From NCBI GenBank assembly GCA_964016885.1, contig OZ024741.1, positions 162,874,001 to 162,938,000 on the forward strand: a DNA stretch of 64,000 bases, given 5' to 3'. This document shows positions 5,085-56,471 of this stretch, piece after piece. The position numbers were made by a program, and so were the translations under genes. The notes under the pieces were generated by a model. It was given only the letters and a program-made list of their open reading frames with translations. It was not told the origin of the DNA and made no database searches. Each line of letters begins with the position of its first letter. The first letter of the stretch is position 1. This DNA comes from Eledone cirrhosa (taxonomy: Eukaryota).

Positions 5085-6511
5085 TCACACTATTTTCCCT
5101 TTGTATCTTCACCGTTAATAGAAGGCATGATTTGTTTTAATCGATATTTGGTTTTTTCTTTTATACCATTTAAGAAGATCTCATTAATCACCACGCCTGA
5201 TACCTTGGCACACTTTTATTTAGATGTAGCATTGTATTTAATGAAGCTGATTATATCTGTCATTATGATTTGATAATAGATATCAACAATGTATTTTCTT
5301 TCACAAACAAAATGGTTTAGATTTCGCGTGACGAAAAAATAAAAGGTTGGTACGTCGATAATTTCCCCTAGGGTATTAGTAGTGTAATTGAAGCAAATGT
5401 TCTATTATAAAACTGAACTAAAATCTGTTGTAGCCTCCATGCTCCATGCTAGTGAAAATATATTTATTTATTTTCTCTAAGAATAACATCAATGTTTGCA
5501 TAGAATCAAGAAGGAATTTAACTTCCAGTCTCAGCTAAATTTATATCTCATTCCTTTTAACTTCACTGAAACCCGAAATAAAGATTATATTTAATTATAT
5601 ACATAAGAAACTTAATGTAAATGTACATGAATGCCCATCAAGTAGCGAACATATCTTATGGTTGGGATATGCTTATAAAGAAACTCCCACTAACTTAAAT
5701 TCTATTTTAGCAAGAAGTTAAGATTGGCAGCTAAATTTGTCCTAATGTATATGTATTTGCTGATTTCCCTTCCCAGAATGGCTTTTTTTTCTTCACAAGA
5801 AACAATATTTGAATGTTTAAGTCCATTTCGTTCTCTTTCTACAAATAGTTTTTTCGTGCATTGCATAACGAGAATGAAAAAATATATAAAATAGATGTTA
5901 GTTTTATACAATAAAATAGGAATCTATTTTATTGCACAATAGAAAAATTACAAGTATGTATCACAACATGCTGCTTGGCAGTGTTTCAATCTCTTTTCTT
6001 TGGTTCCTTAAACAGTTTTAGATATTTATTGCGTTGATTAAAATTTACTCACTTAAGTTAGTAAACTCTTTTGTTTTTCTTTCACATAACAACTGGAAAT
6101 ATATATAAAATAACATTAAAAATATCTTACTACTAAGAAATCTTTAGATAGAACATTTTATTTAAAATCAATAACATCTTTCCCAAAATTTCCAAGGCTT
6201 TTAGTTCAAATGATTTGTTTTATTTAAACATTTATTTACCTATGCATTTCCCCGGATACAAGAGTTCGTATGGAAAATTGAATTGAAAATAAATCTAAGT
6301 CAGAGCATAGACACAATTAAATACATTTAATAAAAATAGAATAGTGTGGTTTCGTTTTGAATTGGTATCAAAATAAAAATATCCCTGCTGATAAAATAAT
6401 GTTTTCCAAGTTGTTTCTAGTATCTACGCGGAAATACTAATTCTAACTTTTTCGGACAGAACTGATAAGTTTTAGAATCTTTGAAATATTGGATATTACA
6501 GTGGAACACAG

Positions 6512-17395: not shown

Positions 17396-17587
17396 CAGAC
17401 TTGCCAACCTCTAAAAATCCAAAGGAGGAGTACTACGAGAAAAAGTCTCTCAAAACGGGGAGCAATGAGGCAAAATGGGGAGATTTTACATAAGGAAATC
17501 TATTATTTGCACAAGAGAAGATATCTCTGACCAACCCCAAAGTGGGTGGGAGATCTCCCCGTCGAACGGGGAGAGTTGGCTGGTCTG
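17396..17587. mobile_element. MITE, same family as 13208-13383
   Basis: Ends cagacttgccaacctct / gagagttggctggtctg; tttatg present on both flanks. Confidence 0.65.
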
Positions 17588-18068
17588 TTTATGTCTATGT
17601 ATGAACTGAATAGGGATTTTATGTATAAAGACACGGGGTTTTGTTGTTGTTTAGCGCCACACTAGAGCTGATAGAGAAAATATATCGTTAAAAGCAATCC
17701 AGCCATGACTATGCCATGTTTTCACAGACACGGTATTCTAGGATTATATCCTAAAACATGCCTGCCTTTCCTTTTTTTTAAAAGATTTACGAGTGTTATT
17801 TGGTGACGATTTGACTGCTAATTGCTAATTCTAGCAGATCGAAAAACACCGTGGAGGTTCCTCGCTGGTTCGTAACGATAGGGAATGAAAGAAATAGTAG
17901 GGAGTAATTCTTCCAGAAGTGATACATTGAGTGTTAGACGCATGCCAATCAGTAAGTTATAAATTACATGTCTTCTACTTAAACAAATAAACCCCGCTTG
18001 TATCTAATGAATGAAAACCAATATTAATTACATAAGAGATAATGATAATATTTCTCTTTGATGTAGCT

Positions 18069-18915
18069 AATAATGATTTCTATTATAGGCGCAAGGCCAG
18101 TAATTTGGAGGAGGGGAACGTCGATTAAATCGACCTCAGTGTATGACTGGTACTTTATTTTATCGACCCCGTAAGGATGAAAGACAAAGCTAAACTTAGT
18201 AGGATTTGATCTGAGAATGTAAAGGGCCATAACTCTATGCTGCAAAGCATGCTGTCTGACGCTCTAGCGATACTGCCAATAATAATAATAATTGTTTCTA
18301 CTTTTGGCACAAGGCCAGCAATTACCCAGTACATTACTGGTACTTTATTTTATCGACCCCGCAAGGATGAAAGGCAAAGTTAACCTTGGTGGGATTTGAA
18401 CTCAGATCATAAAGGGCTGTAACTCTATGCTGCAAAGCATGGCTTCAGACCCTCTACCGATACTGCCAATCCACATAATAATGGTTTCTTATATAGGCAC
18501 AAGGCCAGCAATTTTGATGGGAGGGGAAAGTCGATAAAATCGACCCCAGTGCGTGACTGGTACTTTATTTTATCGACCCCGTAACGATGAAAGGTAAAGT
18601 CAACCTCAGCGGGATTTGAACTCAGAATATAAAGGGCTGTAACTCTTTGCTGCAAAGCATGGCGTCCGACCCTCTACCGGTGCTGCCAATCCACCCCCTT
18701 CACATAATAATAATAATAATAATAATTGTTTCTACTTTAGGAACAAGGCCAGCAAATTACCCAGTGCATTACTGGTACTTTATTTTATCGACCCCGTAAG
18801 GATGAAAGGCAAAGTAAACCTCGGCGGGATTTGAATTCAGACCGTAAAGGGACGTAACTATGCTGGAAAGCATGGCGTCCGACCCTCTACCGATACTGCC
18901 AATCCACCGCCCTTC
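18069..18915 (-). mobile_element. Head-to-tail array of four tRNA-derived SINEs separated by (AAT)n
   Basis: Each unit has A-box-like tggcagtatcgg, B-box gttcaaatcc, core ctttcatccttacggggtcgataaaataaagtaccag and an (ATT)n tail. Confidence 0.9.
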
Positions 18916-18917
18916 AC

Positions 18918-18956
<39 letters not shown>

Positions 18957-18993
18957 GAGGGAGATCGGTGAGAAGGCACAACAACAGACTGAT

Positions 18994-21385
18994 TTGAGTA
19001 TCACAGTTGAAACTCTTAAGGGGCAAGCCAAAAAACTAACCAACTGGAAATCACCAGGCCCAGATGGTGTGCAGGGGTATTGGATTAAACATTTAACATC
19101 CCTCCACCCGAAGCTGACGGCCATGTTCAATGACTGCTTGGTGTCGGGTGAGGTGCCAGAGTGGTTGACAAAAGGTACCACAGTTCTGATAATGAAAGAC
19201 CGAATCAAGGGTAATGATGTTACCAACTATAGACCTATCACATGTCTGCCCGTAATGTGGAAACTGTTGACGAGCATTGTGTCTGAGGAAATCTACCATC
19301 ACCTCCACACAAACAACTTGTTACCGGACGAACAGAAAGGATGCCGAAAGAAGTCACGTGGTACAAAGGACCAGTTGCTTATTGATAAGATGGTAATGGG
19401 GAATTGCAGGAGGAGACACACTGATCTTGCCATGGGATGGATAGACTACAGAAAGGCATTTGACATGGTGCCTCATTCCTGGATCACCAAAAGCCTGGAG
19501 GTCTTCAGGGTGGCAGATAACATCAGACAGTTGCTGGGCAGGAGTATGGGGTCCTGGGAGACAGAGTTGACATCAACTGGAGTATCCTTGGGAAGCGTGA
19601 AGATCAAGAGAGGTATCTTCCAGGGAGATAGCCTGTCCCCTCTGTTGTTTGTCCTTGCCCTGATGCCCTTGACCATTATGCTGCGAAAAGTGAGAGCAGG
19701 ATACAAGTTGGGAAGGGGAGAGCTTACCATCAATCACCTCCTCTTCATGGACGATCTTAAGCTCTTCGGGAAAAGTGAGAAGGAGTTGGATGTGCTTGTT
19801 GACACTGTCCGTATTTTCAGCAGTGATATATGTATGCAGTTTGGTATTGGTAAATGTGGAGTCATTGTGATGAAGAGGGGTAGGTTGAGCAGAAGTAACG
19901 GGATCCAGATACCAACAGGTGAGATGATAAAGGAAATTGACTCTGAGGAAGGATACAAGTATTTGGGCGTTCTGGAGGCTGATGGCATAAAGAACAAAAA
20001 AATGAAGGAATTGTTAAGAACTGAATACATTCGGAGAGTAAGGAGCGTATTGAAGTCACATCTGAACAGCAGAAATGCCATAAGCGCAGTAAATTCCCGA
20101 GCTGTGTCTATTATTAGGTACAGTGCGGGAATTCTGAGATGGAATGTTGCTGAACAAAAAGAAATGGATAGGAAGACTAGGAAGCTATTAACTATCTACA
20201 ACATGTTCCACAAGAGGAGTGATGTCGATAGACTCTACCTAAGGAGATCTGAGGGTGGAAGAGGTCTTATCAGCATAGAGGACTGTGTTCAGATGGAGAA
20301 AAACAACCTATACAAATACGTGACCTATAGTAAGGAGCCAATGCTCAGAACTGTACTGAAGGAGGGGACAGTAGGCCAGGGGATGTCCAAGGAGGAAATA
20401 ACTGTTTCTACTTTTGGCACAAGGCCAGCAATTATCCAGTACATTACTGGTACTTTATTTTATCGACCCCATAAGGATGAAAGGCAAAGTTAACCTCGGC
20501 GGGATTTGAACTCAGAATGGCAAGGGCCGTAACTCTATGCGCCAAAGCATGGCGTCCAACCCTCTACCGATACTGCCAATTCACCATCCAAGGAGGAAAT
20601 AACATCAAGGAGGAAGAGCAGCCTTAAGGGAAAATCCCTTCATAGTACCTTCTTTGAGAAAACTGAATTTAGAGATCCACAGACATGGAACTGGTTGAGA
20701 AGAGGAGACCTCAAAAAGGCTACAGAAGGAATGCTAATGGCTGCGCAGGAGCAGGCCCTCAAAACGAAGTGGTTGAAGCACCATATCTACAAGGAGGAGG
20801 CTAGCCCACTGTGCAGGATCTGTGGAGAGAGAGAGGAGACTGTGGCTCACATTGTGTCCGAGTGTAAACACCTAGCCCAGACCCACTATAAGGGCTGGAG
20901 ACACGATGTGATGGGCAGGGTGATCCACTGGCACCTGTGCAAAGTAAACAATCTACCACATTCTGAGAAATGGTATGAGCATAGGCCAGAGGCGGTGATG
21001 GAGAACAGTCAGGTGAAGGTGCTGTGGGATTTTAGGATACAGACGGACAAAAAACTGGAACACAATAGACCTGACCTGGTGGTTGTGGACAAAGAAAAAA
21101 GATCGTGCCTGATTGTGGATGTGGCCTGCCCGTTCGACACGAGAGTGCAAGAGAAGGAGAGGGAGAAAATTAACCGATACCAGGACCTAAAGTGGGAGGT
21201 GAAAAGGATTTGGAACTGCCATGAAGTCAAAGTGATCCCGATTGTCATAGGCGCACTGGGGACTATCTCCAAAGGTTTCCAGGGATGGTTAAAGAAAATC
21301 GGCCCCTTCACACGCTTTTTGGAACGCTTCAAAAGGCATGCTTGCTTGGAACAGCAAGAACCCTCCGATACGTCCTGAATATCTG
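18994..21385 (+). pseudogene. Dong-A RT-RLE polyprotein, disrupted
   Basis: ORFs 18994-20493 and 20695-21378 are one reading frame broken by the SINE at 20403-20586, plus a 2-bp insertion near 21310 relative to copy 2. Confidence 0.9.
20403..20586 (-). mobile_element. tRNA-derived SINE inserted in Dong-A with a 17-bp TSD
   Basis: tccaaggaggaaataac at 20386-20402 and 20587-20603; the empty site is present in Dong-A copy 2 at 28246-28262. Confidence 0.95.
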
Positions 21386-21740
21386 AGGCTGCAGGTAGTG
21401 GCTTGATATTCAATCCAACGGACTTTCCAGTTAACCAACATCAATGACTGAGATTCAAGGAATAACAATAACAATAATAATAATAATAATGATTTCTTTA
21501 TTAACCACAAGGGTTTACATAAAGTAGACATTAAGGACAGTGCAGGACAATGCAGGACGGTACAAATGGGCATTTCTGCGTGTAAAAAACAAAAACAGAG
21601 GATGTAACAAAAAATAACAATGAAAAATTCCCCAATAGGGGGCAGACTTCGGAGGGACATTTGTGGAGAAAGCCCAGTAAAAAGCCACAATGACCCTGAC
21701 CACCAAGGCAAGTGCCCTCTCCCAGTTTTCCACCTTTAAT

Positions 21741-23915
21741 TTACAGATATATACTCAGAGTAGGCCCATTCACTCGGGCCATTCTTGCTTCTCTCACCCA
21801 TCTTTCAACAAAATGCTGGGAAGAGAGCACTTCCCTCTCTACTCTGATTTTCCTTTTCAAATGAAATTTGAAAAAGTCAATCAGAGCATCACCGAAGAGG
21901 TAAGTGCTCGTCTTCAGCCCTTTCAAACGTGTCCACCATACTATCTCTTTCACCATGTCCACCAGGCAGATAAAAACTGCCTGCCCTTCCCGGCTAAAGG
22001 AGGAGGGCGGGGCAATCCTCACGATGGACTCAGATGATAGCCGGATCCGTCCTAAACGCGACAGCAGGTGTTCGACATAAACCCACAAGTCAGCAATTTT
22101 CGGACACTGGACGAGTGCGTGCAGGACGGTTTCGTCGCCCTGCGCGCATCTCGGACATGCCCGGCTGACGGCACCTCCATGCCTGTAGAGTTTATCCCGA
22201 ACTGGCAAGGCTCCTCGGTAGCACTGCCAGGCCAGAGATTTCTGGAAGTTGTCCATAGGCCCTGGCCCGAAAGTTCTTCCGAAGAGATTGGCTAGTTGAT
22301 TTTCGTCGACGCCTAGAGTTTCCCCAAGTACGTCGTCGCTCTTCCCCTCCACTAATCCTCTATAGAACGCCGAGGTGGAGTTTCCACCGATCACATTGCC
22401 CGATTGGTCGAGGGCTGTGAGCGCCTGAAGACATTCCAGTCTCCAGGCGCTCCCTCTCGGTCTTCGCTTGACCCAGGACTGCAGCTCCGTCAAGGAAACG
22501 AGCTGGGGAAAAACGCGTCTAGCAAACGGCGGCCACACCTGATCACCGTCGAGGAAGAGGTGGAGATGTCGTAGCCTGAGCGCGTGCCTGCGCATCATCA
22601 GCCAAGGCATGCCCAGCCCTCCACGTAGCGGGTGTTGACAACAGATGGACCGCCTGACCATCGGAGCACGTCCCTTCCACAAAAAGCGAAAGAGCAAACG
22701 CTCCAGCGCAGTCAGGCGAGGCTTAGGACAAGGTACGACGGTTAGGCGGTAGCAAATGACAGACGCGATGTACGCGTTAGCCACCTCCGCTCGACCTTTC
22801 AGGGATAGCTTCCTCTCCGCCCATTTCTGGGTGAGAGAAGCCACCCTGCTCGTCATCTCGTCCCAGTTTTTGTCCGTCTGGAGGTCCGGACCGAACCAGA
22901 CCCCTAGCAATTTAACCGGTCCGTCCGTCCAGCGCCCGACGACGCTGTTGGACGGCATGGACCTGCCTCTCCAGGTGCCGAGCTGCAGGCCCACTGACTT
23001 TTCCTGGTTGATCATTGCTCCTGTCACCGCTTCGTATTCTCTTAGAGTAGTGCCGATCGCCTCGATGTGTTTGGCGTTCGACACCACTACGGTGACATCG
23101 TCCGCATATGCTGACACGGATCTTCCGCATCCTAGTTCGCGCGGGACTCCCCTCAACGTCTCCAGTTTGTGCAGTAATGGCTCGAGAGTCAATACGTACA
23201 AGAGGGACGAGAGGGGACATCCTTGGCGGACCGAGCGCATGATGTTGAACGGTTCCGACAGGTGACCGTTCACTCTCACCACAGAGCAGATGTCGCTGTG
23301 CATGGCAGCGATCCAGCCTCTGAAGACGGGCCCAAAGCCAGCCGCCCTCAGGACTGCCGCTAGGTAACGATGGTCGACCCTATCGAAAGCTTTCGACTGA
23401 TCTAAATTGATCAAGGACCCACCCGTGCCAGGTTCCTTAGCTACCCTCTCTATGATGTATCGCATGAGGTGGAGGTTGTCGTGGATGGATCTGTCGGGAA
23501 TGGCGCATGTCTGCGCCTCTCCCACCAGACCACCAACGACAAGCGACAACCTCTTTGCTAGCACCTTGGCCAAAATCTTGAACTCTGTGTTTAGCAGAGT
23601 TATGGGCCGGCAATTGTCTATGTTATCCCCCTTGTTCGGATCCTTTCTCAGCAGTGCCACCGCTCCTCGGCTCACAGAACTGGGAATTCTCCCGTTCTGT
23701 TGCCAGTTGCAGTAGACGTCCGCCAAGAGGCCTCCGAACAAGTCTGGCATCTGTACGTAAAGTTTATAGGGCAGACCATCCAAACCAGGCGATTTACCCC
23801 TTGTGCAGCCAGTCATTGCCTCCCTTACTTCAGCGGCTGTTATCGGCTTTTCGCAACACTTCGCCTCAGTGGCCGAGAGCCGCGGCAGTCCGTCGAGGTA
23901 GACACTAAAGTCCAT
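21741..23915 (-). CDS. Tx1 ORF2, RT and C-terminal zinc-finger part
   Basis: KSPGLDGLP, LDQSKAFDRVDH, SVRQGCPLS, AYADD, CPRC..ETVLHALVQC. Confidence 0.9.
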   Translation of the reverse strand: MDFSVYLDGLPRLSATEAKCCEKPITAAEVREAMTGCTRGKSPGLDGLPYKLYVQMPDLFGGLLADVYCNWQQNGRIPSSVSRGAVALLRKDPNKGDNIDNCRPITLLNTEFKILAKVLAKRLSLVVGGLVGEAQTCAIPDRSIHDNLHLMRYIIERVAKEPGTGGSLINLDQSKAFDRVDHRYLAAVLRAAGFGPVFRGWIAAMHSDICSVVRVNGHLSEPFNIMRSVRQGCPLSSLLYVLTLEPLLHKLETLRGVPRELGCGRSVSAYADDVTVVVSNAKHIEAIGTTLREYEAVTGAMINQEKSVGLQLGTWRGRSMPSNSVVGRWTDGPVKLLGVWFGPDLQTDKNWDEMTSRVASLTQKWAERKLSLKGRAEVANAYIASVICYRLTVVPCPKPRLTALERLLFRFLWKGRAPMVRRSICCQHPLRGGLGMPWLMMRRHALRLRHLHLFLDGDQVWPPFARRVFPQLVSLTELQSWVKRRPRGSAWRLECLQALTALDQSGNVIGGNSTSAFYRGLVEGKSDDVLGETLGVDENQLANLFGRTFGPGPMDNFQKSLAWQCYRGALPVRDKLYRHGGAVSRACPRCAQGDETVLHALVQCPKIADLWVYVEHLLSRLGRIRLSSESIVRIAPPSSFSREGQAVFICLVDMVKEIVWWTRLKGLKTSTYLFGDALIDFFKFHLKRKIRVEREVLSSQHFVERWVREARMARVNGPTLSIYL

Positions 23916-25159
23916 CCCTCTACCCGGCCCACCGCTGCCCCGAACAGCTGAGCGAAGTGTCGCTGAAAAGCTTCACACATTTGCCCGGGATCGAGTAGCA
24001 TGCGCCCGTCGTGGTCCACCAAAGACCGGATCGTGTCTTTGTTGCCACGACGCGCCTCCGCCACTCGGGCCCATTGGACGGCTTTCGTCCCCTCGTGTCT
24101 GAGAGCACGCACCCTTGCTCTGACAACGCAGCCTTCGTGCTTTGCATTGAAGAATTGGTCAAGGGCCAATTTCGCCGCAAGCACGTCGGTCGCAATGCCT
24201 TTGCTAAGCGCCTCGTCTAATTTTCTAACTAGTTCTCCCTCTGCTCTATTTTTCTCTATTGCTAAAGCCTTACTAAACCTAATCGATTCTATTCTAATCG
24301 CTCTTTTCAGAGCAAACCACCACTTGTTGTTGACGATGGCCCCCGTCAACGCCCGCTTAACTAGTTCGCTAATCCGGTCTCTGTAGGCCTTGCGCGCTGG
24401 TAAGGACGCGTTTAGCTTCCAGTAGCCGGGTCCTCGTCTATGAAGCCTATCTAAGTCAAGCACACAGATCACGAATTTGTGGTCCGTGTAGCTGACTATC
24501 TTGAATTGTGGACAGCCTATGCTAGACCTATCTATTTCCCTACAAAATACTCTATCTAGATATGATCTGGATGACCCTATGCGGTTTGTCCAAGTCCACA
24601 TTGGCACATTCGGGAAATCCAATCGGTACCTGTCAGACAGTTCAAAACGCCTGAGCAGGTTGGTGAGGCTCTTGCACCCTCCACCCCTATCCGCTAATCC
24701 CACACAGTCCCAGCGTGCATCTAAGATCCTGTTCCAGTCGCCCACTAACACTAAAGAGCGGGACGTTCCAAGAAAGGTCTCCAGACGCCGGAAGAAATCA
24801 GGCCGCCCTGCTCCTGTCGGGGCATAGACGGCCACTAGCCTGAAAGCTTGCCCGTCTCCGCTAGTCACGTCCAGCACCACCAGCTTACCCTCTGGGTCCA
24901 GGAAGATGGCCCGTATGGCGAGATCCAAACCTCTCCGAAAAAGCACAGCAACTCCTCCACCGGATCCCGGACGGCTGGGAGATGCGTACACATCGTAGCC
25001 GCCGAAGATCGGTGCGAAGGCCCGTGCTTCGAAGATTCTGGTCTCGCTGATGGCCACTACATCTATGTTTAGTGACCTGAGGTCGTTGAGCAGGTGACCC
25101 TGCTTCCATGACGACCCCAAGCCACGCGCATTGATGCTGCCTATTCTGAGTGAGGTCAT
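23840..25159 (-). CDS. Tx1 ORF2, APE endonuclease part (one frameshift near 23920 joins it to the RT)
   Basis: SINARG, ISET, VYAP, GDWN, LDRVF, TDH, GPGYWKLN. Confidence 0.9.
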   Translation of the reverse strand: MTSLRIGSINARGLGSSWKQGHLLNDLRSLNIDVVAISETRIFEARAFAPIFGGYDVYASPSRPGSGGGVAVLFRRGLDLAIRAIFLDPEGKLVVLDVTSGDGQAFRLVAVYAPTGAGRPDFFRRLETFLGTSRSLVLVGDWNRILDARWDCVGLADRGGGCKSLTNLLRRFELSDRYRLDFPNVPMWTWTNRIGSSRSYLDRVFCREIDRSSIGCPQFKIVSYTDHKFVICVLDLDRLHRRGPGYWKLNASLPARKAYRDRISELVKRALTGAIVNNKWWFALKRAIRIESIRFSKALAIEKNRAEGELVRKLDEALSKGIATDVLAAKLALDQFFNAKHEGCVVRARVRALRHEGTKAVQWARVAEARRGNKDTIRSLVDHDGRMLLDPGQMCEAFQRHFAQLFGAAVGRVEGWTLVSTSTDCRGSRPLRRSVAKSR

Positions 25160-25194
25160 GTTTAAAATAGAGTGGAAAAGATGGGAAAGACCAC

Positions 25195-26481
25195 TTACCG
25201 TACTTTTGGTAGAGGAGGGATGGTTTTTACATCCCTTTTCACTTGATCGTCTGGTGAAGGGACCGTTGAATCGTCCCTTCGGCTGGTCGTCGGCTCTTCT
25301 AAGAGAATGTCTGAGTATACTCTTCGATTGATGGTTCCTCCTAGGTCCCTGAAATCACCAACTGCGTTGGGGAATTTCGTTTTAATGTTTGTGTATTGTT
25401 TCTGTGCTATTTTTAGCAGTCTTATGTTAGTTGGCGTTTTGATTGGTGCTGGTATTATGTAGTCCTGTTGTGAAATGTCTGTGTGTTCAATTATGTAAGT
25501 CATTAGTTTCTTGTTGTGTGTGTTTATTGCCGTGCATTTGTTTTTCTGGGGGTGGGGTGTGGTTCTGCTATTTTCTTGTCGTTGTTGCTGGGTGTGTGTG
25601 TTTTGTTGTTGTGTTTGCGATGTTGGTGCTTGTGGTGGTGGTGTTGAAGGTGTTGTTGGCGGTGGGGTTGTCGCCAGTGGTGATGGTGGTGCTAGTGTGG
25701 GTGGTGATGGTGTTGGTGTTGTTGCTGCTGTGGGTCTCTTTGCAGTAGACTTTACCCTTTTTTCATTTCTTTCCTCCCTTTTCAAAGGCGACGATGCGCT
25801 GCTTCTGCGTTTGTGCCTTCTTACGACCTTTTGCCATCTCTCTCCCACCTCACACTCCATGTCTGATTCTGTGAGGTCGGGGAGGGGTACCAGCTCCACT
25901 CTTTCACTTGTTGTTGTTGGTGATGTTTGCACTGGAGTCTCTGTTGCAGCTGCATTTGGTATTGCTGTTGTTGTTGTTAGTATTTCCACTGCTGCTGCTG
26001 TTTTTGATTTCCGTGGAGTGGGTATGGGTGCCACGGGCCTATCGTTCCTGGTTGCCGCTTGTCCTGTTGCTGGTAGCTGTGGAGCCGGATTCGGAAGGAG
26101 GGGGGTTTTCTCCTTTCTCAGGGTCTTCTCGTTGCAGAAGGCCCTGAGGTGAGTCTTCGATCCACAGCGAAAGCATTTCGGGCGTTTGCCCTCAACACTT
26201 ATGGGCAGTTGAGTGCCGTTATCGAAGTCTATCACATCCGGGATAGCTTCGATGCACTCCTGGTTGGTTTGGATTAGCATCTCAATGGAGGAGCCGACCC
26301 AATCTTCTCTTACTTTTTTCTGTACTTGCAGTACAGTTGTTTTGTCCTCGATTCCGACGAGGACAGACGCGGCCAGCCAAGAAGGGGTCATTCCGGGGGG
26401 GACGTGGGTCAGTTTGACCCTCACAATTTTTTGCCCGCAGTAGGAGGGCACCAACACCATTTCCTCGCTCCTTAGGGTCAC
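25195..26481 (-). CDS. Tx1 ORF1, C-terminal part with CCHC zinc knuckle
   Basis: CFRCGSKTHLRAFC followed by a Pro/Thr-rich tail. Joins 26282-27337 if one base is removed from the T7 run at 26539-26545. Confidence 0.8.
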   Translation of the reverse strand: MTLRSEEMVLVPSYCGQKIVRVKLTHVPPGMTPSWLAASVLVGIEDKTTVLQVQKKVREDWVGSSIEMLIQTNQECIEAIPDVIDFDNGTQLPISVEGKRPKCFRCGSKTHLRAFCNEKTLRKEKTPLLPNPAPQLPATGQAATRNDRPVAPIPTPRKSKTAAAVEILTTTTAIPNAAATETPVQTSPTTTSERVELVPLPDLTESDMECEVGERWQKVVRRHKRRSSASSPLKREERNEKRVKSTAKRPTAATTPTPSPPTLAPPSPLATTPPPTTPSTPPPQAPTSQTQQQNTHTQQQRQENSRTTPHPQKNKCTAINTHNKKLMTYIIEHTDISQQDYIIPAPIKTPTNIRLLKIAQKQYTNIKTKFPNAVGDFRDLGGTINRRVYSDILLEEPTTSRRDDSTVPSPDDQVKRDVKTIPPLPKVR

Positions 26482-27337
26482 TACTGATTGGGCCTTTGCC
26501 TCCTGGGGTGTGGCAAAAAGTACGTCTACGGTGGCATATTTTTTTGCCTCGGGTGATGTGCGTTTTCCGCTGCCACACAGACCCCAAGGCTTTTTGTATT
26601 TGGGCCTCTGTGGCTCTTTCCACCCTACGGGATTTTGTACTTACTGTACGGTACGTGACCGTACAGTGCTCTTGGGTTTCGAAAAAATTTTCCGCTGCCT
26701 TGCAGATTGCTCGGTGTCCGTTCTTTGTCACCATCTTCTTCGCTTCCTCTAATTCCTCATTTGTTATGAGGATTGTTTCCAAGTTTTTCGCAATACCTGC
26801 AAATGAGATTGGTTTTTCTCTGCTGTTGTTGTTGTCGTCAGAGCTGCTGGTACTTTTGTTGTTGCTGCAGGTACTACGACTACTGCCTCCGCCGCTGTTG
26901 CTGTGGTTGTTGTTGGTGTTGCTGCTGCTAATGCTGTTGTTGTTTATGCTGCTGGTGATGCTGTTGCGGCTGCTACTGTTGTTTTCATTGTCACTGTTGC
27001 TGTTGTTATTACGGCTGCTACTGCTATTATTCCTGACGTCAGACGAATGAACTGGGTTTTCGTATTTCCCGCACACCTGTTTCGTCGCTGTCGTCGTCGT
27101 CGTGGAGAAACCTTGCACGCTTTGCACGAGACTTTTCTTATCTTTCGTCACTTGCGAAAGAGAAGGGAGGGAGAGAGACACATTTAAAGAAGGGAGGGAG
27201 AGAGACAATCTTCTCTCTGCTGTAGTGATGATTGAGGAAGAAGAAGACGGGAATGAGTGGGAGTGACGTATGAAATTTCTTTTTCGTAGCCATGTTGTTT
27301 TTTTGTTTAAAATGAAATTTTGGGTACAAAACCCCAA
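26282..27337 (-). CDS. Tx1 ORF1, N-terminal part (Ser/Asn-rich; true start uncertain)
   Basis: Contains SFAGIAK; lies upstream of the zinc-knuckle ORF; frameshift at RGKK|YATVDV. Confidence 0.65.
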   Translation of the reverse strand: MGFCTQNFILNKKTTWLRKRNFIRHSHSFPSSSSSIITTAERRLSLSLPSLNVSLSLPSLSQVTKDKKSLVQSVQGFSTTTTTATKQVCGKYENPVHSSDVRNNSSSSRNNNSNSDNENNSSSRNSITSSINNNSISSSNTNNNHSNSGGGSSRSTCSNNKSTSSSDDNNNSREKPISFAGIAKNLETILITNEELEEAKKMVTKNGHRAICKAAENFFETQEHCTVTYRTVSTKSRRVERATEAQIQKALGSVWQRKTHITRGKKICHRRRTFCHTPGGKGPISSDPKERGNGVGALLLRAKNCEGQTDPRPPRNDPFLAGRVCPRRNRGQNNCTASTEKSKRRLGRLLH

Positions 27338-27530
27338 TAACTGGTTATTTAACCCCGAAGGGCCAAATAACGGACAGAAAGACCCCTCTCACGAGGAGGA
27401 GGGTGTCTTTATCAACAATTTGGTTCAAGTTTTAAACAATTTACAATTGTTTTAACGGTTAAAAATTACTATACCTTACAGAGCCGAGCCTCCGTCAACC
27501 ATGGCATTCAATAATAATAATAATAATAAT

Positions 27531-29120
27531 ATTATGTGTACTGCAAAAAGTGAGAGCAGGATACGGGTTGGGAAAGGGAGGGCTTACCATCAATCACCTC
27601 CTCTTCATGGACGATCTTAAGCTCTTCGGGAAGAGTGAGAAGGAGTTGGATGTGCTTGTTGACACTGTCCGTATTTTCAGCAATGATATATGTATACAAT
27701 TTGGTATTAGTAAGTGTGGAGTCGTTGTGATGAGGAGGGGTAAGTTGAGCAGAAGTAACGGAATCCAGATACCAACAGGTGAGATGATAAAGGAAATTGT
27801 CTCTGAGGAAGGATACAAGTATTTGGGCGTTCTGGAGGCTGATGACATCAAGAACAAAAAAATGAAGGAATTGATAAGAACTGAATGCCTTCGGAGAGTA
27901 AGGAGCGTATTAAAGTCACATCTGAACAGTAGGAATGCCATAAGTGCAGTAAATTCCCGAGCTGTGTCTATTATTAGGTACAGTGCGGGAATTCTGAGAT
28001 GGAATGTTGCTGAACAAAAAGAAATGGATAGGAAGACTAGGAAGCTATTGACTATCTACAATATGTTCCACAAGAGGAGTGATGTCGATAGACTCTACTT
28101 AAGGAGATCTGAAGATGGAAGAGGTCTTATCAGCATAGAGGACTGTGTTCAGATGGAGAAAAACAACCTATACAAATACGTGACTGATAGTAAGGAGCCA
28201 ATGCTCAGAACTGTACTGAAGGAGGGGACAATAGGCCAGGGGATGTCCAAGGAGGAAATAACATCAAGGAGAAAGAGCAGCCTTCAGGAAAAATCCCTTC
28301 ATAGTACCTTCTTTGAGAAAACTGAATTTAGAGATCCACAGACATGGAACTGGTTGAAAAGAGGAGACCTTAAAAAGGCTACAGAAGGAATGTTAATGGC
28401 TGCGCAGGAGCAGGCCCTCAAAACGAAGTGGTTGAAACACCACATTTACAAGGAGGAGGCTAGCCCACTGTGCAGGATCTGTGGAGAGAGAGAGGAGACT
28501 GTGGCTCACATTGTATCCGAGTGTAAACACCTAGCCCAGACTCACTATAAGGGCTGGAGACATGATGTGATGGGCAGGGTGATCCACTGGCACCTATGCA
28601 AAGTAAACAATTTACCACATTCTGAGAAGTGGTATGAGCATAAGCCAGAGGCGGTGATAGAAAACGATCAGGTGAAGGTGCTGTGGGATTTTAGGATACA
28701 GACGGACAAGAAACTGGAACACAATAGACCTGACCTGGTGGTTTTGGACAAAGAAAAAAGATCGTGCCTGATTGTGGATGTGGCCTGCCCATTCGACACG
28801 AGAGTGCAAGAGAAGGAGAGGGAGAAAATTAACCGATACCAGGACTTAAAGTGGGAGGTAAAAAGGATTTGGAACTGCCATGAAGTCAAAGTGATCCCGA
28901 TTGTCATAGGCGCACTAGGGACTATCTCAAAAAGTTTCCAGGGATGGTTAAAGAAAATTGGCCCCTTCACGCTTTTTGGAACGCTTCAAAAGGCATGCTT
29001 GCTGGGAACAGCAAGAACCCTCCGATACGTCCTGAATATCTGAGGCTGCAGGTAGTGGCTTGATATTCATTTCAATAAACTTTCCAGTTAACTAAAATCA
29101 ATGACTGAGACTCAAAGAGT
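27531..29120 (+). mobile_element. R4/Dong-clade LINE family A, copy 2 (5'-truncated; ORF 27550-29043 open)
   Basis: Near-identical to copy 1 from about 19675 onward. (AAT)n at both ends; a SINE 3' stub at 29165-29182 faces its tail. Confidence 0.93.
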
Positions 29121-29126
29121 AATAAC

Positions 29127-29165
<39 letters not shown>

Positions 29166-29610
29166 TGTTTCTACGTTAGGCATTAATAATAATAATTGTT
29201 ATTCTTATAATAATATGCATAACATGTTTTAGCGTACAGAGATAATTATATAAAAAGTATGCATTAAATATTACGTAACTGACAGAATAATTGTCTAAAA
29301 GCTGATACTGTTATCGTAATAATAATCACTTACTTAAAGATTTCATTATGAATATCGTAGCCTATTCTACATGTATTAATATATATTCTAAATGCAAATG
29401 GATTCACAAATAACTTTATTGTGTACTAGGCTTACTTGTTGAAGATTGTATCATTAGTGAGAGAATGTTTGAAGTACAAAATCACACATATTTTAGAAAC
29501 CATACAAAGCAACATTAGATTTAATATCTTGAAATGTATCTTGAATAATCCTTAATATAGTTAAGCCAGCCTTTGAATCATTTAGTATTTCACAAGCATA
29601 AGACACACGT

Positions 29611-29612
29611 AT

Positions 29613-29684
<72 letters not shown>

Positions 29685-30066
29685 GAATACAAATATACTG
29701 ACAGTTACAGGTGCATACGAATAAACATACATACACGTACATACATTCATTCATACATACATACATACATACATACATACATTCATTCGTACATACATTC
29801 ATACATACATTCATTCATACATACATTCATTCATACATACATACATAGATACATCCACACATACATACATACATACATACACACACAAACCCACACATTA
29901 TTCGTTGTGATTCAGATTCGGCTTTGTATAAACTTTGACATATCTCATTCAGTCTCTCTCGCTTTCTCTATTGCTCGTCATGTATGTATGTATGTATGTA
30001 TGTATGTATGTATGTATGTATGTATGTATGTATGTATGTATGTATGTATGTATGTATGTATGTATG
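29611..30066. repeat. (CA)n, (TA)n, (CATA)n and (TATG)n microsatellite cluster
   Basis: Direct inspection. Confidence 0.9.
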
Positions 30067-30668
30067 TTCTTCTGGTTTTATAATTTCACAAATGTTTGCC
30101 AATAGAGAGAGAGAGTCGGTTTCTAACATAGACACAATACTCTCTCATTGGAATTTACACAACATCAACTAGGTAGATATGTATGCATCTCTGCATGCAT
30201 GTGTAGATATTGATGTTATTGTATGTGTGGATGTGTATGTTTTGAGTTGTATGTGTGGATGTGGATGTTTTGAGTTGTATGTGTGCATATGTATATGCTT
30301 TGTATCTGTACATGTGTATATGCAGTTATTAGATGCAAAATCTTAGGAATGTTTTACATATTTTTACTGTTCCATTAATGGATTGTACTTGTAATTTCCT
30401 AACTAGTTGTGTTCTTTCTGTTCCTGTGAAGCCTAGCTTCTCAAGATTTGTATTGAGGCAGTTACTAACATATCCCAGTGCCCCAATAATCACAGGCATA
30501 AATCTGAAGGTGTAATCAGGGTGGAGTATCTGCAGATTTCTCATCAGTTCTGCATAAATATTCTCCTTTTCGCTAATCTTTGATATTATATTGGCATCTG
30601 CTGGAGAGCTAACTTCCACTACTGTGCATGCCTTCTTTTCCCTGTCCCATATCATAATATCTGGTCTA
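30067..30668 (-). mobile_element. Dong-B 3' fragment embedded in (TATG)n
   Basis: ORF 30329-30655 nearly matches the C-terminal part of 3095-3478; (TATG)n on both sides. Confidence 0.9.
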
Positions 30669-30670
30669 CC

Positions 30671-30701
<31 letters not shown>

Positions 30702-30837
30702 TGTATGTATGTATGTATGTATGTATGTATGTATGTATGTGATTCATATATTTTCCCAGAGAAATCTTTATTTACATTTTACATTTTACATTTATTTACA
30801 TCCTAATGTAACATGGCTAAAAATTCACATGGCTAAA

Positions 30838-34168: not shown

Positions 34169-34690
34169 CGCGTCTCCCTTGCCGTCCTCCGGGGAAACGC
34201 CTTCTGTATTCTGTCCGCCGGGGCTGTGGGGAGGCCACCGATATGATTGACTGACTTGTCATTTCATCAGTCAGATGTTTTTAGACCCCAGTACTGGAAG
34301 TTCTGAATACCGTTTATTTTTTGATGTTACGCTTGTATATTTAATTAATCTTAATTGTAGTTTACATTCGAATGTATTATTATTATTGTTGTTATTAAGG
34401 GGCGGTGGATTGGTAGTATCGGTAGAGGGTCGGACGCCATGCTTTCCAGCATAGAGTTACGGCCCTTGCCATTCTGAGTTCAAATCCCGCCGAGGTTAAC
34501 TTTGCCTTTCATCCTTACGGGGGTCGATACAATAAAGTATCAGTCACGCACTGGGGTCGATTTAATCGTCTTTCCCCTCCCCCAAAATTGCTGGCCTTGT
34601 GCCTATATAAGAAACCATTATTATTGTCGTTATTATGTTGTTTTTCATTCGTGCTATGGCTATACTCGATAATGACGAGGCAGCCATCAT
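30838..34690 (+). mobile_element. RTE-clade LINE, degenerate (APE, RT and three C2H2 fingers); 3' end displaced by an insertion
   Basis: YTFFW, SVYAPT, LGDFNARVG, TTWMHP, NYRGISLLS, QSGFRAGRGT, LLYADD, RLRWSGH..RIPKQLFYGEL; many frameshifts. Confidence 0.92.
34399..34622 (+). mobile_element. tRNA-derived SINE (main family), full copy in ATT-rich sequence
   Basis: A and B boxes, core, gtcgatttaatcg segment, ends agaaaccattattatt. Confidence 0.9.
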
Positions 34691-36254: not shown

Positions 36255-36740
36255 CAGGGATTATGGACAATTTATAAAAATCCTTGCCATGGCACTTCTA
36301 CAGTGGGGCGCTACCATTTCGAAACAAGCTCTACAGACACGGAATTGCTAACAGCCGGTCCTGTTCGAGATGCACACAGGGCAACAAAGCCCGTGTACCG
36401 CAGACCTGTGGACTTGTGTCGATCAACTGCTATCACGTGTAGAATAAATACAGTTATCATATGGATCTATAGTGAGCATTGCGCTACCTACTCCGTTTAC
36501 AAGGAAGGTGCCATAAATCTAGTTTCTGTTAGCTGTGGTGAAGGAACTTTTATGGTGGACACGTCTAAAGGGTTTGAGGAAAGTAATCTTCCTCTTCCGC
36601 CAAGCCCCCATTAATCTTTTCAAGTGCAATACGGGGAAGAATATTAGGGTAGAGAGGGAAGAGCTGGCTTCTTGTGTTTTATGATAGTGTGAGAGCGGTG
36701 AGATTGATGATGCTGAATTGGTCTACTCAGATTACGTTTT
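36255..36740 (+). mobile_element. Old 3' fragment of a Tx1 related to the element at 21491-27509
   Basis: MDNL*KSLPWHFYSGALPFRNKLYRHG..CSRC and VKELLWWTRLKGL match the Tx1 ORF2 C-terminus. Confidence 0.8.
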
Positions 36741-40400: not shown

Positions 40401-40779
40401 GGGTTGCGTGTTATTAGACGGTGGTTTGACAGCTATCGCTAGCAGATCTGGGAATTGCGTAAAACATCACCTCTATGGCTCCTATACACCATTTATTGGT
40501 TTTGATTTTATTTTAGTTGCGTTGCATATTAGATACCACACCAAAACCTGTTAACTCCTCATGGAGTTGTAGGGGCGGGTGCTCTCATGACATTTAAATT
40601 TAAGTATTTAACCTGTTAGATCCCATTTCTCTAGGACTGAACACAATTGATTTCTCCCAGAGAAAAATGAGAGAATGAGGTAAAGAGAAAGAGAAGGAAA
40701 GGGTGAGAGAGTAAGGAGCGGGGCGAGAATGAAGAATCGCCTCTCAATTTTGAACTGGTTTATTATTTATCGACCTTAG

Positions 40780-41070
40780 GACGGTTGATTGGCAGAATCG
40801 GTAGAGCGTCGGACAACATGCTTAGTGGCATAGAGTCCCGCCAAAGTTAACTTTGCCTTTCGTTCTTTCATTCTAAAATAAAGCACCAGTAACGTACTGG
40901 GGTCGATCTAATCGACTTTCCCCTCCTCCCACCAATTAATGGCATTGTGCCTATACTAGAAATCATTATTTCTCGACCTTGAAAAGATAGAAAGTAAATT
41001 TGACTATAACGAAATTTGAAATCAGTGCTCAGAGACAGAACGAATACCGCCTCTGCTAAATCACCGCCTA
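40780..41070. mobile_element. Main-family SINE (+, about 40780-40970) followed by a decayed opposite-strand fragment
   Basis: Homology to the other SINE copies; ends agaaatcattatt. Confidence 0.75.
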
Positions 41071-42974: not shown

Positions 42975-43164
42975 GGCGTTGGATTGGCAGTATCGGTAGA
43001 GGGTCTGACGCCATGCTTTTCAGCTTAGAGTTACGGCCCTTTATGATCTGAGTTCAAATCGCGCCGAGGTTAACTTTGCCTTTCATCCTTACGGAGTCGA
43101 TAAAATAAAGTACCAGTAATACACTGGTATAATTGCTGGCCTTGTGCCAAAAGTAGAAACAATT
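42975..43164 (+). mobile_element. tRNA-derived SINE (main family)
   Basis: A box, B box, core and 3' end present. Confidence 0.88.
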
Positions 43165-56290: not shown

Positions 56291-56471
56291 TTGTTTCTAC
56301 TTTAGGCACAAGGCCAGCAATTACCCAGTACATTACTGATACTTTATTTTATCGAACCCGTAAGGATGAAAAGCAAAGTCAACCTCGGCGGGATTTGAAC
56401 TCAGATCGTAAAGGGACGTAACTATGCTGGAAAGTATGGCGTCCGACCCTCTACTGATACTGCCAATCCAC
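56291..56471 (-). mobile_element. tRNA-derived SINE (main family)
   Basis: Full copy; agaaatattaat occurs on both flanks (likely TSD). Confidence 0.88.

What the first reader, a model, noticed from the sequence alone, without database searches (positions are those of the whole stretch)
18069..29182. An 11-kb stack built on (AAT)n: four SINEs, Dong-A, Tx1, Dong-A, SINE stub
Seen: the junctions between neighbouring elements are (AAT)n tracts (about 18280, 18476, 18706, 18918, 21461, 27510, 29121). Both Dong-A copies face +, while all SINEs and the Tx1 face -. Known: Dong elements target (TAA)n. Inference: each insertion leaves or duplicates a repeat tract that the next element uses, so the stack keeps growing.
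Basis: partly seen in the sequence, partly recalled or inferred. Interest (0 to 1): 0.75.

Follow-up and report, generated by a model that had tools for sequence, protein, structure and literature searches.

The report
Retrotransposon pile-up in an AAT repeat
An 11-kb stretch of this animal genome is a pile of eight jumping-gene copies joined by AAT repeats, and across the genome two unrelated LINE families sit in this repeat in fixed, opposite directions, so each landing likely recreates the landing site; it is a clean example of a known kind of behaviour.

Summary
Window 18064-29196 is eight retroelements joined end to end by (AAT)n tracts that all read AAT on the + strand. They are four SINEs (-), a 5'-truncated Dong-like LINE (+), a full-length 6.0-kb L1/Tx1-like LINE (-), a second truncated Dong-like copy (+) and a 17-nt SINE stub (-). 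A fifth SINE is nested in the first Dong copy.

Genome-wide samples show strict strand-specific targeting by both LINEs:
- 30 of 30 full-length Dong-like 5' ends follow (AAT)n.
- 29 of 29 full-length Tx1-like 5' ends follow (ATT)n.
- 67 of 67 annotated neighbours across a tract obey the orientation rule.
- In a random 1 Mb, 21 of 32 (AAT)>=5 tracts touch one of these elements.
- LINE 3' ends are clustered: 21 ends fall in 9 of 100 random loci, against 19 expected.

The SINE is looser. Its target is ATTAT, and only 12 of 160 copies have three or more repeat units 5' of them.

Growth by reuse of tails and target-site duplications is inferred, because no empty site could be found. Assignment to the Tx1 clade was not tested by phylogeny. 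I rate this a new variant of a known kind, of moderate interest.

The parts
18069..18277 (-). SINE1 (long subtype). Body is about 18075-18277, 5'-truncated by about 18 nt. Its short 3' tail reads AATAAT on + (18069-18074) and abuts the unique left flank.
   Evidence: 83.5% identical to SINE3 over 206 nt
18278..18292 (.). (AAT)5 tract. It is the 3' tail of SINE2 and the 5' flank of SINE1.
18293..18475 (-). SINE2 (short subtype)
   Evidence: 90.2% identical to SINE4
18476..18703 (-). SINE3 (long subtype), including its very short tail TAATAAT (18476-18482).
18704..18726 (.). (ATA)7.7 tract. It is the 3' tail of SINE4 and the 5' flank of SINE3.
18727..18917 (-). SINE4 (short subtype), full length. 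Its head begins GTGAAGGGCGGTGGATTGGCAG.
18918..18954 (.). (ATA)12 tract between the head of SINE4 and the 5' junction of Dong copy 1.
18955..21460 (+). Dong-like LINE copy 1 (A1), 5'-truncated. It holds the reverse transcriptase, a CCHC motif and the C-terminal restriction-like endonuclease. It is interrupted by SINE5.
   Evidence: Pfam RVT_1 E 7.5e-24 and a sub-threshold zf-RVT match. Other genomic copies run on upstream of this start point. Up to 99.8% identical to copies elsewhere.
20403..20587 (-). SINE5 nested in Dong copy 1. It is flanked by the 16-bp target-site duplication CCAAGGAGGAAATAAC (20387-20402 and 20588-20603). It is absent from all other Dong copies compared.
21461..21490 (.). 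Shared tail tract AATAACAATAAC(AAT)6. It is the 3' tail of Dong copy 1 read on + and the 3' tail of the Tx1-like element read on -, so the two lie tail to tail.
21491..27509 (-). Full-length L1/Tx1-like LINE, 6019 bp. It has an ORF1 region with a CCHC knuckle, and an ORF2 with APE endonuclease, reverse transcriptase and zf-RVT. In this copy ORF2 is split over two reading frames near 23840-23972, and the ORF1 region also spans two frames.
   Evidence: The 3' 406 nt are 100% identical to 12 other loci. The 5' end is confirmed by 29 other full-length copies.
27510..27530 (.). (AAT)7 tract between the 5' end of the Tx1-like element and the 5' junction of Dong copy 2, which lie head to head.
27531..29119 (+). 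Dong-like LINE copy 2 (A2). It is 5'-truncated about 720 nt further in than copy 1, is 95.4% identical to copy 1 and has no SINE5.
29120..29165 (.). (TAA)15 tail of Dong copy 2, which is also the tail of the SINE stub.
29166..29182 (-). SINE stub: the last 17 nt of a SINE (reverse complement TGCCTAACGTAGAAACA), so extremely 5'-truncated.
29183..29196 (.). TTAATAATAATAAT, the right-hand remnant of the tract, followed by unique flank.
   Evidence: A short-read contig spans 29176-29599 (record 8).

Best explanation
The region is a pile-up of eight separately inserted non-LTR retroelements in one (AAT)n tract, and it likely grew because each insertion, through its repeat tail and its target-site duplication, would leave fresh (AAT)n for the next.

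Shown:
- A Dong-like LINE with a C-terminal restriction-like endonuclease always lies so that its sense strand reads (AAT)n at both ends.
- An L1/Tx1-like LINE with an APE endonuclease, and a SINE, always lie so that their sense strand reads (ATT)n.
- The two groups therefore face opposite ways in any one tract.
- Both LINEs are found almost only at such tracts genome-wide, and they are clustered.
- The copies in the stack are not each other's closest relatives, so they came in separately.

Inferred:
- Integration is by target-primed reverse transcription. The Dong-like enzyme would nick the TTA-reading strand and the Tx1-like enzyme the AAT-reading strand. The RNA's repeat tail would anneal to the nicked repeat.
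- The order of arrival was SINEs first, then Dong copy 2, then Dong copy 1, and last the Tx1-like element, which landed in the tract between the two Dong copies.
- The SINE is mobilised by the Tx1-like LINE.
- Tails longer than the original site make the locus a progressively better target.
For: Architecture:
- The Dong-like ORF (L098:3050-6472, 1141 aa) has RVT_1 and no APE.
- Its best solved relatives are R2 proteins (E 1.5e-29). A second aligned stretch covers the C-terminal nuclease region.
- The motifs CRICGEREETVAHIVSEC and RPDLVVVD...DVACPFD are visible.
- The Tx1-like ORF2 aligns colinearly with human L1 ORF2p over APE plus RT (E 2.1e-51).

Targeting:
- 30 of 30 full-length Dong-like 5' ends show (AAT)n in the 100 nt printed upstream. 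One of the 30 is the query's own locus. 29 of the 30 have 3 or more units within 25 nt.
- 29 of 29 non-window full-length Tx1-like 5' ends abut (ATT)>=4.
- 5'-truncated copies with a 5' tract: Dong-like 22 of 29, Tx1-like 7 of 14. The random expectation is about 0.2%.
- L265 is a clean solo Tx1-like insertion: unique DNA, (ATT)10, element, (ATT)20, unique DNA.

Orientation:
- 67 of 67 annotated neighbours across a tract obey the rule. A further 46 neighbours were unannotated or unique.
- 28 of 29 element-tract contacts in a random 1 Mb obey it.

Reuse and clustering:
- 21 of 32 (AAT)>=5 tracts in the random 1 Mb touch one of the three families, 8 of them on both sides.
- 21 LINE 3' ends fall in 9 of 100 random 10-kb loci against 19.0 expected. 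0 of 20000 simulations were as clustered.
- L204:7123-7719 holds four tandem SINEs, each followed by the same ATTATTATCATC. This shows re-insertion into a regenerated target-site duplication.
- L092 has the same Dong / reversed Tx1-like / Dong arrangement as the window.

Independence and age:
- Dong copies 1 and 2 are 95.4% alike. Copy 1 is 99.4-99.8% identical to copies elsewhere, and copy 2 is 97.9% identical to L060.
- SINE3 is 83.5% identical to SINE1 but 90.2% to an unlinked copy. SINE4 is 90.2% identical to SINE2 but 93.9% to an unlinked copy.
- The Tx1-like 3' 406 nt are 100% identical to 12 other loci, and the whole element is 98.3-98.7% identical to five other full-length copies.
Against: - No empty or polymorphic site was recovered, so order and growth are inferred.
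- SINEs mostly do not sit in microsatellites. 148 of 160 lack (ATT)>=3 in the 25 nt 5' of them. 113 of 131 copies with a complete 3' end have tails shorter than 3 perfect units.
- 7 of 14 truncated Tx1-like copies and 7 of 29 truncated Dong-like copies show no 5' tract of 3 or more units.
- One of 29 contacts in the random sample breaks the orientation rule.
- A few Dong-like 5' junctions switch to ATT units just before the element: L162, and L167 and L236.
- Stacks this large are not typical. In the random 1 Mb, 176 chains comprised 162 singletons, 11 pairs and 3 triples, though 10-kb sampling truncates chains.
- The targeted loci are the best-scoring, hence youngest, copies. A few junctions may have been sampled from both sides (for example L072 and L133).
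- Similarity between the SINE and Tx1-like 3' ends is significant only for the long SINE subtype (P 0.007, against 0.33 for the short one).
Confidence: 0.85

Rival explanations
1. The stack was built by tandem or segmental duplication, or unequal crossing-over between microsatellites, of a smaller composite unit rather than by separate insertions.
For: - TRF reports periods of 190 and 220 bp across the SINE block.
- The SINE subtypes alternate long, short, long, short.
- The same Dong / reversed Tx1-like tail-to-tail junction, with 4-6 AAT units, recurs in L035, L080, L085 and L087.
Against: - Adjacent copies are not each other's closest relatives. SINE3 is 83.5% identical to SINE1 but 90.2% to an unlinked copy. 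SINE4 is 90.2% identical to SINE2 but 93.9% to an unlinked copy. The two Dong copies are 95.4% alike, yet copy 1 is up to 99.8% identical to copies elsewhere.
- The two Dong copies have different truncation points.
- In the loci with the recurring junction, the Dong copy runs on beyond the window copy's truncation point and lacks SINE5.
Confidence: 0.04
2. The tracts are only element-borne. They would be 3' tails plus repeat units carried at the 5' end of transcripts. The elements would land in each other's tails, and no genuine pre-existing microsatellite is targeted. The stack would then reflect element-on-element nesting.
For: - In the random 1 Mb, 19 of the 29 element contacts with the 32 tracts are element 3' tails.
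- About half of the neighbours across a tract are other elements.
- The 5' tract phase at Tx1-like starts is constant...ATT|GAATGCC.
Against: - 5'-truncated copies, which cannot carry a 5' leader, still have 5' tracts: Dong-like 22 of 29, Tx1-like 7 of 14.
- 46 of 113 tract-bearing junctions lead into unannotated or unique DNA.
- L265 has unique DNA on both sides.
- 11 of 32 tracts in the random sample touch none of the three families.
Confidence: 0.07
3. Passive accumulation: the elements insert anywhere and merely survive in AT-rich, repeat-rich, gene-poor DNA, so the link with (AAT)n is indirect.
For: - The window is AT-rich, with G+C of 0.28-0.45 outside the LINEs.
- It holds many other simple repeats just to the right of the stack.
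Against: - The association is precise to the nucleotide at both ends of the elements.
- Orientation follows the rule in 67 of 67 neighbours.
- The SINE target profile is ATTAT in 57-59 of 59 sites.
Confidence: 0.02
4. Assembly artefact: repeats were joined wrongly at microsatellites, so the stack does not exist as one molecule.
For: - No read or contig spanning an internal junction was seen. Short-read unitigs break at the tracts.
Against: - Both outer junctions are covered by contigs of the same sample: 17569-18135 and 29176-29599 (records 2 and 8).
- The same kinds of junction recur at dozens of loci on many contigs.
- The target-site duplication of the nested SINE5 is intact.
Confidence: 0.02

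Closest known systems
Dong (R4/Dong group of restriction-like-endonuclease LINEs), reported to target (TAA)n in Bombyx mori, Anopheles gambiae and the snail Biomphalaria glabrata (passages of PMC3812793, which cites Xiong & Eickbush 1993 and Kojima & Fujiwara 2004)
   Same: - Single ORF with reverse transcriptase followed by a CCHC motif and a PD...D-type nuclease.
- (AAT)n/(TAA)n tail and target.
- Frequent head-to-tail tandems.
   Different: - Clade membership was not tested by RT phylogeny.
- Here the element shares its target tract with an unrelated APE-type LINE and a SINE.
- On the order of a thousand 5' ends were flagged (1316 first-look candidates, a rough lower-bound indicator and not a count).
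Microsatellite-specific Tx1-clade LINEs: Kibi on (TC)n, Koshi on (TTC)n, and crocodilian Tx1 families on (TTCC)n/(TTTC)n (sections and passages of PMC4494074)
   Same: - APE-type, L1-group LINE with strict microsatellite specificity.
- A SINE with the same target preference, as with SINEU and Tx1-Mar in that paper.
   Different: - The target is (ATT)n. I found this target for an APE-type LINE in none of five searches. Kojima & Fujiwara 2004 and Repbase were not readable here.
- Tx1-clade membership rests only on architecture, behaviour and an automatically named 31%-identical homologue.
Keno (APE, Tx1 clade) and Utopia (RLE), which evolved specificity for the same site of U2 snRNA genes in parallel (passage of PMC4640811); also R1 and R2 in 28S rDNA (recalled)
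   Same: An APE-type and an RLE-type LINE converge on one repeated target in a genome.
   Different: - The shared target here is a microsatellite, so the target is regenerated and lengthened by each element's own tail.
- The two LINEs use opposite strands, which gives strictly oriented mixed arrays.
Recently active Dong-R4 and L1-Tx1 families annotated in Octopus vulgaris: 1129 and 421 recent insertions (Table 1 of PMC13282606, read as a passage)
   Same: - The same two LINE superfamilies are young and abundant.
- One partial homologue here is labelled Octopus sinensis, covering 6% of the query.
   Different: - The passages I read from that paper say nothing on target sites, orientation or arrays.
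- The organism behind this window is not known to me.

Membership tests
R2-superfamily / R4-Dong group (restriction-like-endonuclease LINEs) | Single ORF with reverse transcriptase, then a CCHC motif and a PD-(D/E)xK-type endonuclease at the C-terminus, and no APE domain | tested here: met
   - Pfam finds RVT_1 and a sub-threshold zf-RVT match, and no Exo_endo_phos.
- R2 proteins are the best solved relatives. A second aligned stretch covers query 1030-1102, but it is weak on its own (i-Evalue 0.065).
- The motifs were read.
R2-superfamily / R4-Dong group (restriction-like-endonuclease LINEs) | Insertion into (TAA)n, with a (TAA)n tail | tested here: met
   - 27 of 29 3' ends are followed by a tract of 3 or more units.
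- 29 of 30 5' ends have 3 or more units within 25 nt.
R2-superfamily / R4-Dong group (restriction-like-endonuclease LINEs) | RT phylogeny places it with Dong/R4 rather than R2, NeSL, CRE or HERO | not testable with these tools
   No named reference sequences of these clades could be obtained. Only solved R2 proteins were available for comparison.
Tx1 clade (L1 group, APE-type LINEs) | N-terminal APE endonuclease, reverse transcriptase, C-terminal zinc-binding region, and a separate upstream ORF1 | tested here: met
   - Pfam finds Exo_endo_phos, RVT_1 and zf-RVT.
- ORF2 is colinear with human L1 ORF2p (E 2.1e-51).
- The ORF1 region has a CCHC knuckle, CFRCGSKTHLRAFC.
- These features are shared by the whole L1 group.
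Tx1 clade (L1 group, APE-type LINEs) | Sequence-specific insertion | tested here: met
   - 29 of 29 full-length 5' ends abut (ATT)>=4.
- 28 of 29 3' ends carry an (ATT)n tail of 3 or more units.
Tx1 clade (L1 group, APE-type LINEs) | RT phylogeny with Tx1 rather than L1 proper | tested here: inconclusive
   - The best named homologue is 'Transposon TX1 uncharacterized 149 kDa protein' of a coral, at 31% identity. That is an automatic name.
- The atlas search gave only generic RT/APE clusters.
tRNA-derived SINE with a LINE-matched 3' end | tRNA-like head with Pol III boxes | tested here: inconclusive
   - ARAGORN found no tRNA.
- Rfam found no tRNA match at E <= 0.1.
- A B-box-like GAGTTCAAATCC and GGTAGAG are visible by eye.
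tRNA-derived SINE with a LINE-matched 3' end | 3' end shared with the partner LINE | tested here: inconclusive
   - Both have the same (ATT)n tail and the same orientation rule.
- Comparing the last 40 nt with the Tx1-like element, the long subtype gives P 0.007 and the short subtype P 0.33.
- There is no similarity to the Dong-like 3' end.
tRNA-derived SINE with a LINE-matched 3' end | Target-site duplications | tested here: met
   - An exact duplication of 6 nt or more in 66 of 115 copies.
- It begins ATTAT in 57-59 of 59 sites with a duplication of 8 nt or more.

The most novel reading that the evidence does not exclude
In this genome the AAT microsatellite is a shared, self-renewing landing pad. 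An RLE-type Dong-like LINE and an APE-type L1/Tx1-like LINE with its SINE have converged on the two strands of the same repeat. Each element's tail builds target for the other lineage. Most long AAT tracts in the genome would then be products of this cycle rather than of ordinary slippage. This would be niche construction between unrelated retrotransposons.
Probability: 0.45. Interest if true: 0.6.

Novelty: new variant of a known kind. Interest (0 to 1): 0.45.

Why it matters
Site-specific LINEs are models for how retrotransposons choose targets, and they are starting points for programmable insertion tools. Here two enzymes of different origin, restriction-like and APE-like, read the two strands of one 3-bp repeat in the same genome. 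That gives a natural paired comparison of how strand and sequence are chosen.

It also has practical consequences:
- In this genome most long AAT microsatellites are parts of retroelements, which affects marker design and repeat annotation.
- New insertions of these young families hide inside repeat arrays. Short-read insertion callers would likely miss them there.

Tried and rejected
1. 3' transduction or a composite element. The same Dong/Tx1-like tail-to-tail junction in L035, L080, L085 and L087 suggested that a Tx1-like transcript might have carried a Dong piece along. I rejected this. In those loci the Dong copy continues upstream of the window copy's truncation point and lacks SINE5.

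2. Empty site or polymorphism from public reads. The only holders were three runs of one sample, kept as short unitigs that break at the tracts, plus RAD-seq runs. No informative joint was found, so there is no evidence either way. Summed depths were not used as copy numbers.

3. RNA families.
- A search for an HDV-like ribozyme or any Rfam family at the Dong-like 5' end (L098:1600-3200) gave nothing credible.
- Rfam on the stack gave only sub-threshold mir-297 hits on the (ACAT)n block at 29585-29882.
- ARAGORN found no tRNA in the SINE block.

4. Clade naming. A word-based homologue search and the protein atlas gave no decisive clade label for the Tx1-like ORF2.

5. Literature. Searches found no paper on an APE-type LINE specific for ATT/TAA repeats or on mixed Dong/Tx1 arrays. 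Kojima & Fujiwara 2004, Xiong & Eickbush 1993 and Repbase entries were not read, so prior description cannot be excluded. Search 68 and passages of PMC4824008 did not identify the SINE family.

Full report
**What is there.** Window 18064-29196 lies between unique flanks and consists only of retroelement copies and AAT-type tracts. From left to right the order is:
- SINE1 (-), then (AAT)5
- SINE2 (-), then TAATAAT
- SINE3 (-), then (ATA)7.7
- SINE4 (-), then (ATA)12
- Dong-like copy 1 (+, 18955-21460), then AATAACAATAAC(AAT)6
- Tx1-like LINE (-, 21491-27509), then (AAT)7
- Dong-like copy 2 (+, 27531-29119), then (TAA)15
- a 17-nt SINE stub (-), then TTAATAATAATAAT

A fifth SINE (20403-20587, -) sits inside Dong copy 1 with a 16-bp target-site duplication. 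All seven perfect tracts in the stack read AAT on the + strand. The window's five tracts of 6 or more units are all in the stack. The one weak point is that the junction near 18476 has only about two units.

**What the elements are.** The Dong-like element has a reverse transcriptase, a CCHC motif and a C-terminal PD...D nuclease motif, and no APE domain.
- A full-length copy (L098:1697-6582, about 4.9 kb) carries one 1141-codon open frame.
- Its best solved relatives are R2 retrotransposon proteins (E 1.5e-29). A second, weak aligned stretch covers the nuclease region.

The 6.0-kb element on the minus strand has APE, reverse transcriptase and zf-RVT domains.
- It aligns colinearly with human L1 ORF2p (E 2.1e-51).
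- Its ORF1 region carries a CCHC knuckle.
- In this copy ORF2 is split over two frames near 23840-23972, and the ORF1 region also spans two frames. This copy is therefore not coding-competent.

I could not run an RT phylogeny with named references. 'Dong' and 'Tx1' are therefore supported at the level of architecture and behaviour only. The best named homologue of the APE-type ORF2 is an automatically named 'Transposon TX1' protein at 31% identity.

The SINEs come in a long and a short subtype and end ...GAAAC(A/C) followed by ATT units on their own strand. Neither ARAGORN nor Rfam recognises a tRNA in them.

**Why the orientations are opposite.** On its own strand the Dong-like element ends in (AAT)n. 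On their own strands the Tx1-like element and the SINE end in (ATT)n. In a tract that reads AAT on +, the first must face + and the others must face -. The rule follows from the tails and needs no extra mechanism.

**Genome-wide tests.** The window lies in a 3.0-Gb assembly. I took the 30 best loci for each of four 400-nt probes that excluded the tracts: Dong-like 3' and 5' ends, and Tx1-like 3' and 5' ends.

Junction counts were as follows:
- 5' ends: 30 of 30 full-length Dong-like copies show (AAT)n in the 100 nt printed upstream. One of the 30 is the probe's own locus. 29 of 30 have 3 or more units within 25 nt.
- 5' ends: 29 of 29 non-window full-length Tx1-like copies abut (ATT)>=4.
- 3' ends: 27 of 29 Dong-like and 28 of 29 Tx1-like copies have tails of 3 or more units.
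- 5'-truncated copies, like the two Dong copies here: 22 of 29 Dong-like and 7 of 14 Tx1-like have a 5' tract. 61 copies ran off their locus and were not evaluable.
- The random expectation for such a tract in a 25-nt window is about 0.2% (40 of 20000).

Looking across the tract, 67 neighbours could be annotated as Dong-like, Tx1-like or SINE, and all 67 obey the orientation rule. Another 46 neighbours were unannotated or unique. A few junctions may be sampled from both sides, for example L072 and L133.

**Unbiased sample.** I drew 100 random 10-kb stretches, 1 Mb in all.
- They hold 32 perfect (AAT)>=5 tracts. 21 touch one of the three families, 8 of them on both sides. 28 of 29 contacts obey the rule.
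- 21 LINE 3' ends lie in only 9 of the 100 stretches, against 19.0 expected. None of 20000 simulations was as clustered.
- Linked chains are mostly small: 162 singletons (mainly SINEs), 11 pairs and 3 triples. The eight-member stack in the window is therefore at the large end, although 10-kb sampling truncates chains.

**The SINE is different.**
- Of 160 random copies, only 12 have (ATT)>=3 within 25 nt 5' of them, and none has the opposite reading.
- 113 of 131 copies with a complete 3' end have tails under 3 perfect units.
- However, 99 of 115 3' junctions start ATTA, against a null of 0.66%.
- In 59 sites with an exact duplication of 8 nt or more, the first five duplicated bases are ATTAT in 57-59 of 59. 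Position -1 is C in 28 and G in 1.

The SINE therefore needs about two repeat units, and microsatellites are a minority of its targets, though an enriched one. L204:7123-7719 shows four tandem SINEs each followed by the same ATTATTATCATC. A regenerated duplication was hit again and again. This is the same process that the four SINEs of the window suggest.

**Separate insertions and their likely order.** Neighbours in the stack are not each other's closest relatives.
- The two Dong copies are 95.4% alike and have different truncation points.
- Dong copy 1 is 99.4-99.8% identical to copies elsewhere. Dong copy 2 is 97.9% identical to L060.
- SINE3 and SINE4 each match unlinked copies better than their neighbours.
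- The Tx1-like copy is the youngest. Its 3' 406 nt are identical to 12 other loci, and the whole element is 98.3-98.7% identical to other full-length copies.

The likely history, which is inferred, starts from a short AAT site. It received SINEs and two Dong-like copies in tandem, and the Tx1-like element then landed in the tract between them. L092 has the same Dong / reversed Tx1-like / Dong arrangement. L265 is a clean solo Tx1-like insertion inside an (ATT)n tract with unique DNA on both sides.

**Mechanism.** What is shown is strand-specific association with the repeat at both ends, target-site duplications, clustering, and re-use of regenerated sites. What is inferred is the following:
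- Integration is by target-primed reverse transcription. The restriction-like enzyme would nick the TTA-reading strand and the APE enzyme the AAT-reading strand.
- The repeat tail of the RNA would pair with the nicked repeat.
- New tails (median 8-12.5 units), together with duplications made of repeat units, would enlarge the target and favour further hits.
- The SINE would be mobilised by the Tx1-like LINE. Both have the same tail and the same orientation rule. The last 40 nt are similar for the long subtype (P 0.007) but not the short one (P 0.33), and there is no similarity to the Dong-like end.

**Comparison with the literature.**
- Dong elements are reported to target TAA repeats in a moth, a mosquito and a snail (passages of PMC3812793).
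- Many Tx1-clade LINEs are target-specific, including for (TC)n, (TTC)n and (TTCC)n, and can share targets with SINEs (PMC4494074, section 15 and passages).
- An APE-type Tx1-clade family (Keno) and an RLE-type family (Utopia) evolved specificity for the same U2 site in parallel, and tandem insertions occur there (passages of PMC4640811).
- Dong-R4 and L1-Tx1 families are listed as recently active in Octopus vulgaris (Table 1 of PMC13282606, read as a passage). The passages I read say nothing about targets.

Five searches found no description of an APE-type LINE specific for ATT/TAA repeats or of mixed, oriented Dong/Tx1/SINE arrays. Kojima & Fujiwara 2004 and Repbase could not be read, so earlier description cannot be excluded.

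**Verdict.** This is a real and well-defined feature, explained by known principles. What seems new is the pairing of two unrelated LINE lineages and a SINE on opposite strands of one microsatellite, on a scale that accounts for most long AAT tracts sampled. I rate it a new variant of a known kind, with interest 0.45.

Noticed in passing
L141, L161, L136 and about 20 other loci; L098:1865-2420: The 5' UTR of full-length Dong-like copies holds an internal direct duplication. Probe positions 161-396 match a second time about 80 nt downstream in many loci.
   Followed up: no
L149, L151, L152, L154: Some full-length Dong-like 5' junctions carry one or two extra partial copies of the first about 20 nt of the element (AAGGGAAGAAGACGCACGG...), separated by AATAA. 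This looks like template jumping at the 5' end.
   Followed up: no
L162; L167:3269 and L236:1237: Just upstream of some Dong-like 5' ends the tract switches from AAT units to ATT units. This local inversion of the repeat reading is unexplained, and it matches the one rule-breaking contact in the random sample.
   Followed up: no
L142, L145, L151, L268; L147, L164, L081: Two further recurrent sequences end at (AAT)n...AAGCAAGATAAATGCAACTGT(AAT)n and ...TACTACGTAGGTCG[GC]C(AAT)n. They are probably additional repeat families that use or carry the same tract.
   Followed up: no
L106, L119, L126; L111, L128, L131; L043, L052: At least two further variants of the Tx1-like 3' end (...CCCTTGTGGCCAATAAAGAAATC and ...GGCTAATAAATGAAATC) also end in (ATT)n. 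Several related LINE subfamilies therefore share the target.
   Followed up: partly
L204:7123-7719: Four SINE copies lie in tandem outside any microsatellite, each followed by the same 12-nt ATTATTATCATC.
   Followed up: partly
window 29613-30793: A dense block of other simple repeats, (AC)n, (AT)n, (ACAT)n, (ATGT)n and (TATG)n, lies directly right of the stack. The sub-threshold Rfam mir-297 hits at 29585-29882 are artefacts of (ACAT)n.
   Followed up: partly
window 22001-24000: The Tx1-like ORF2 is far more G+C-rich (0.57) than the surrounding genome (about 0.35).
   Followed up: no
window 36255-36671: An old fragment is 64% similar to positions 5246-5690 of the Tx1-like element, so it is a diverged relative of the same LINE group.
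   Followed up: no
window 34401-34614, 40778-40962, 42974-43161, 56292-56471: Solo SINE copies elsewhere in the window show duplications beginning ATTAT (8-20 nt). One of them (34401) sits in an imperfect ATT-rich site.
   Followed up: yes
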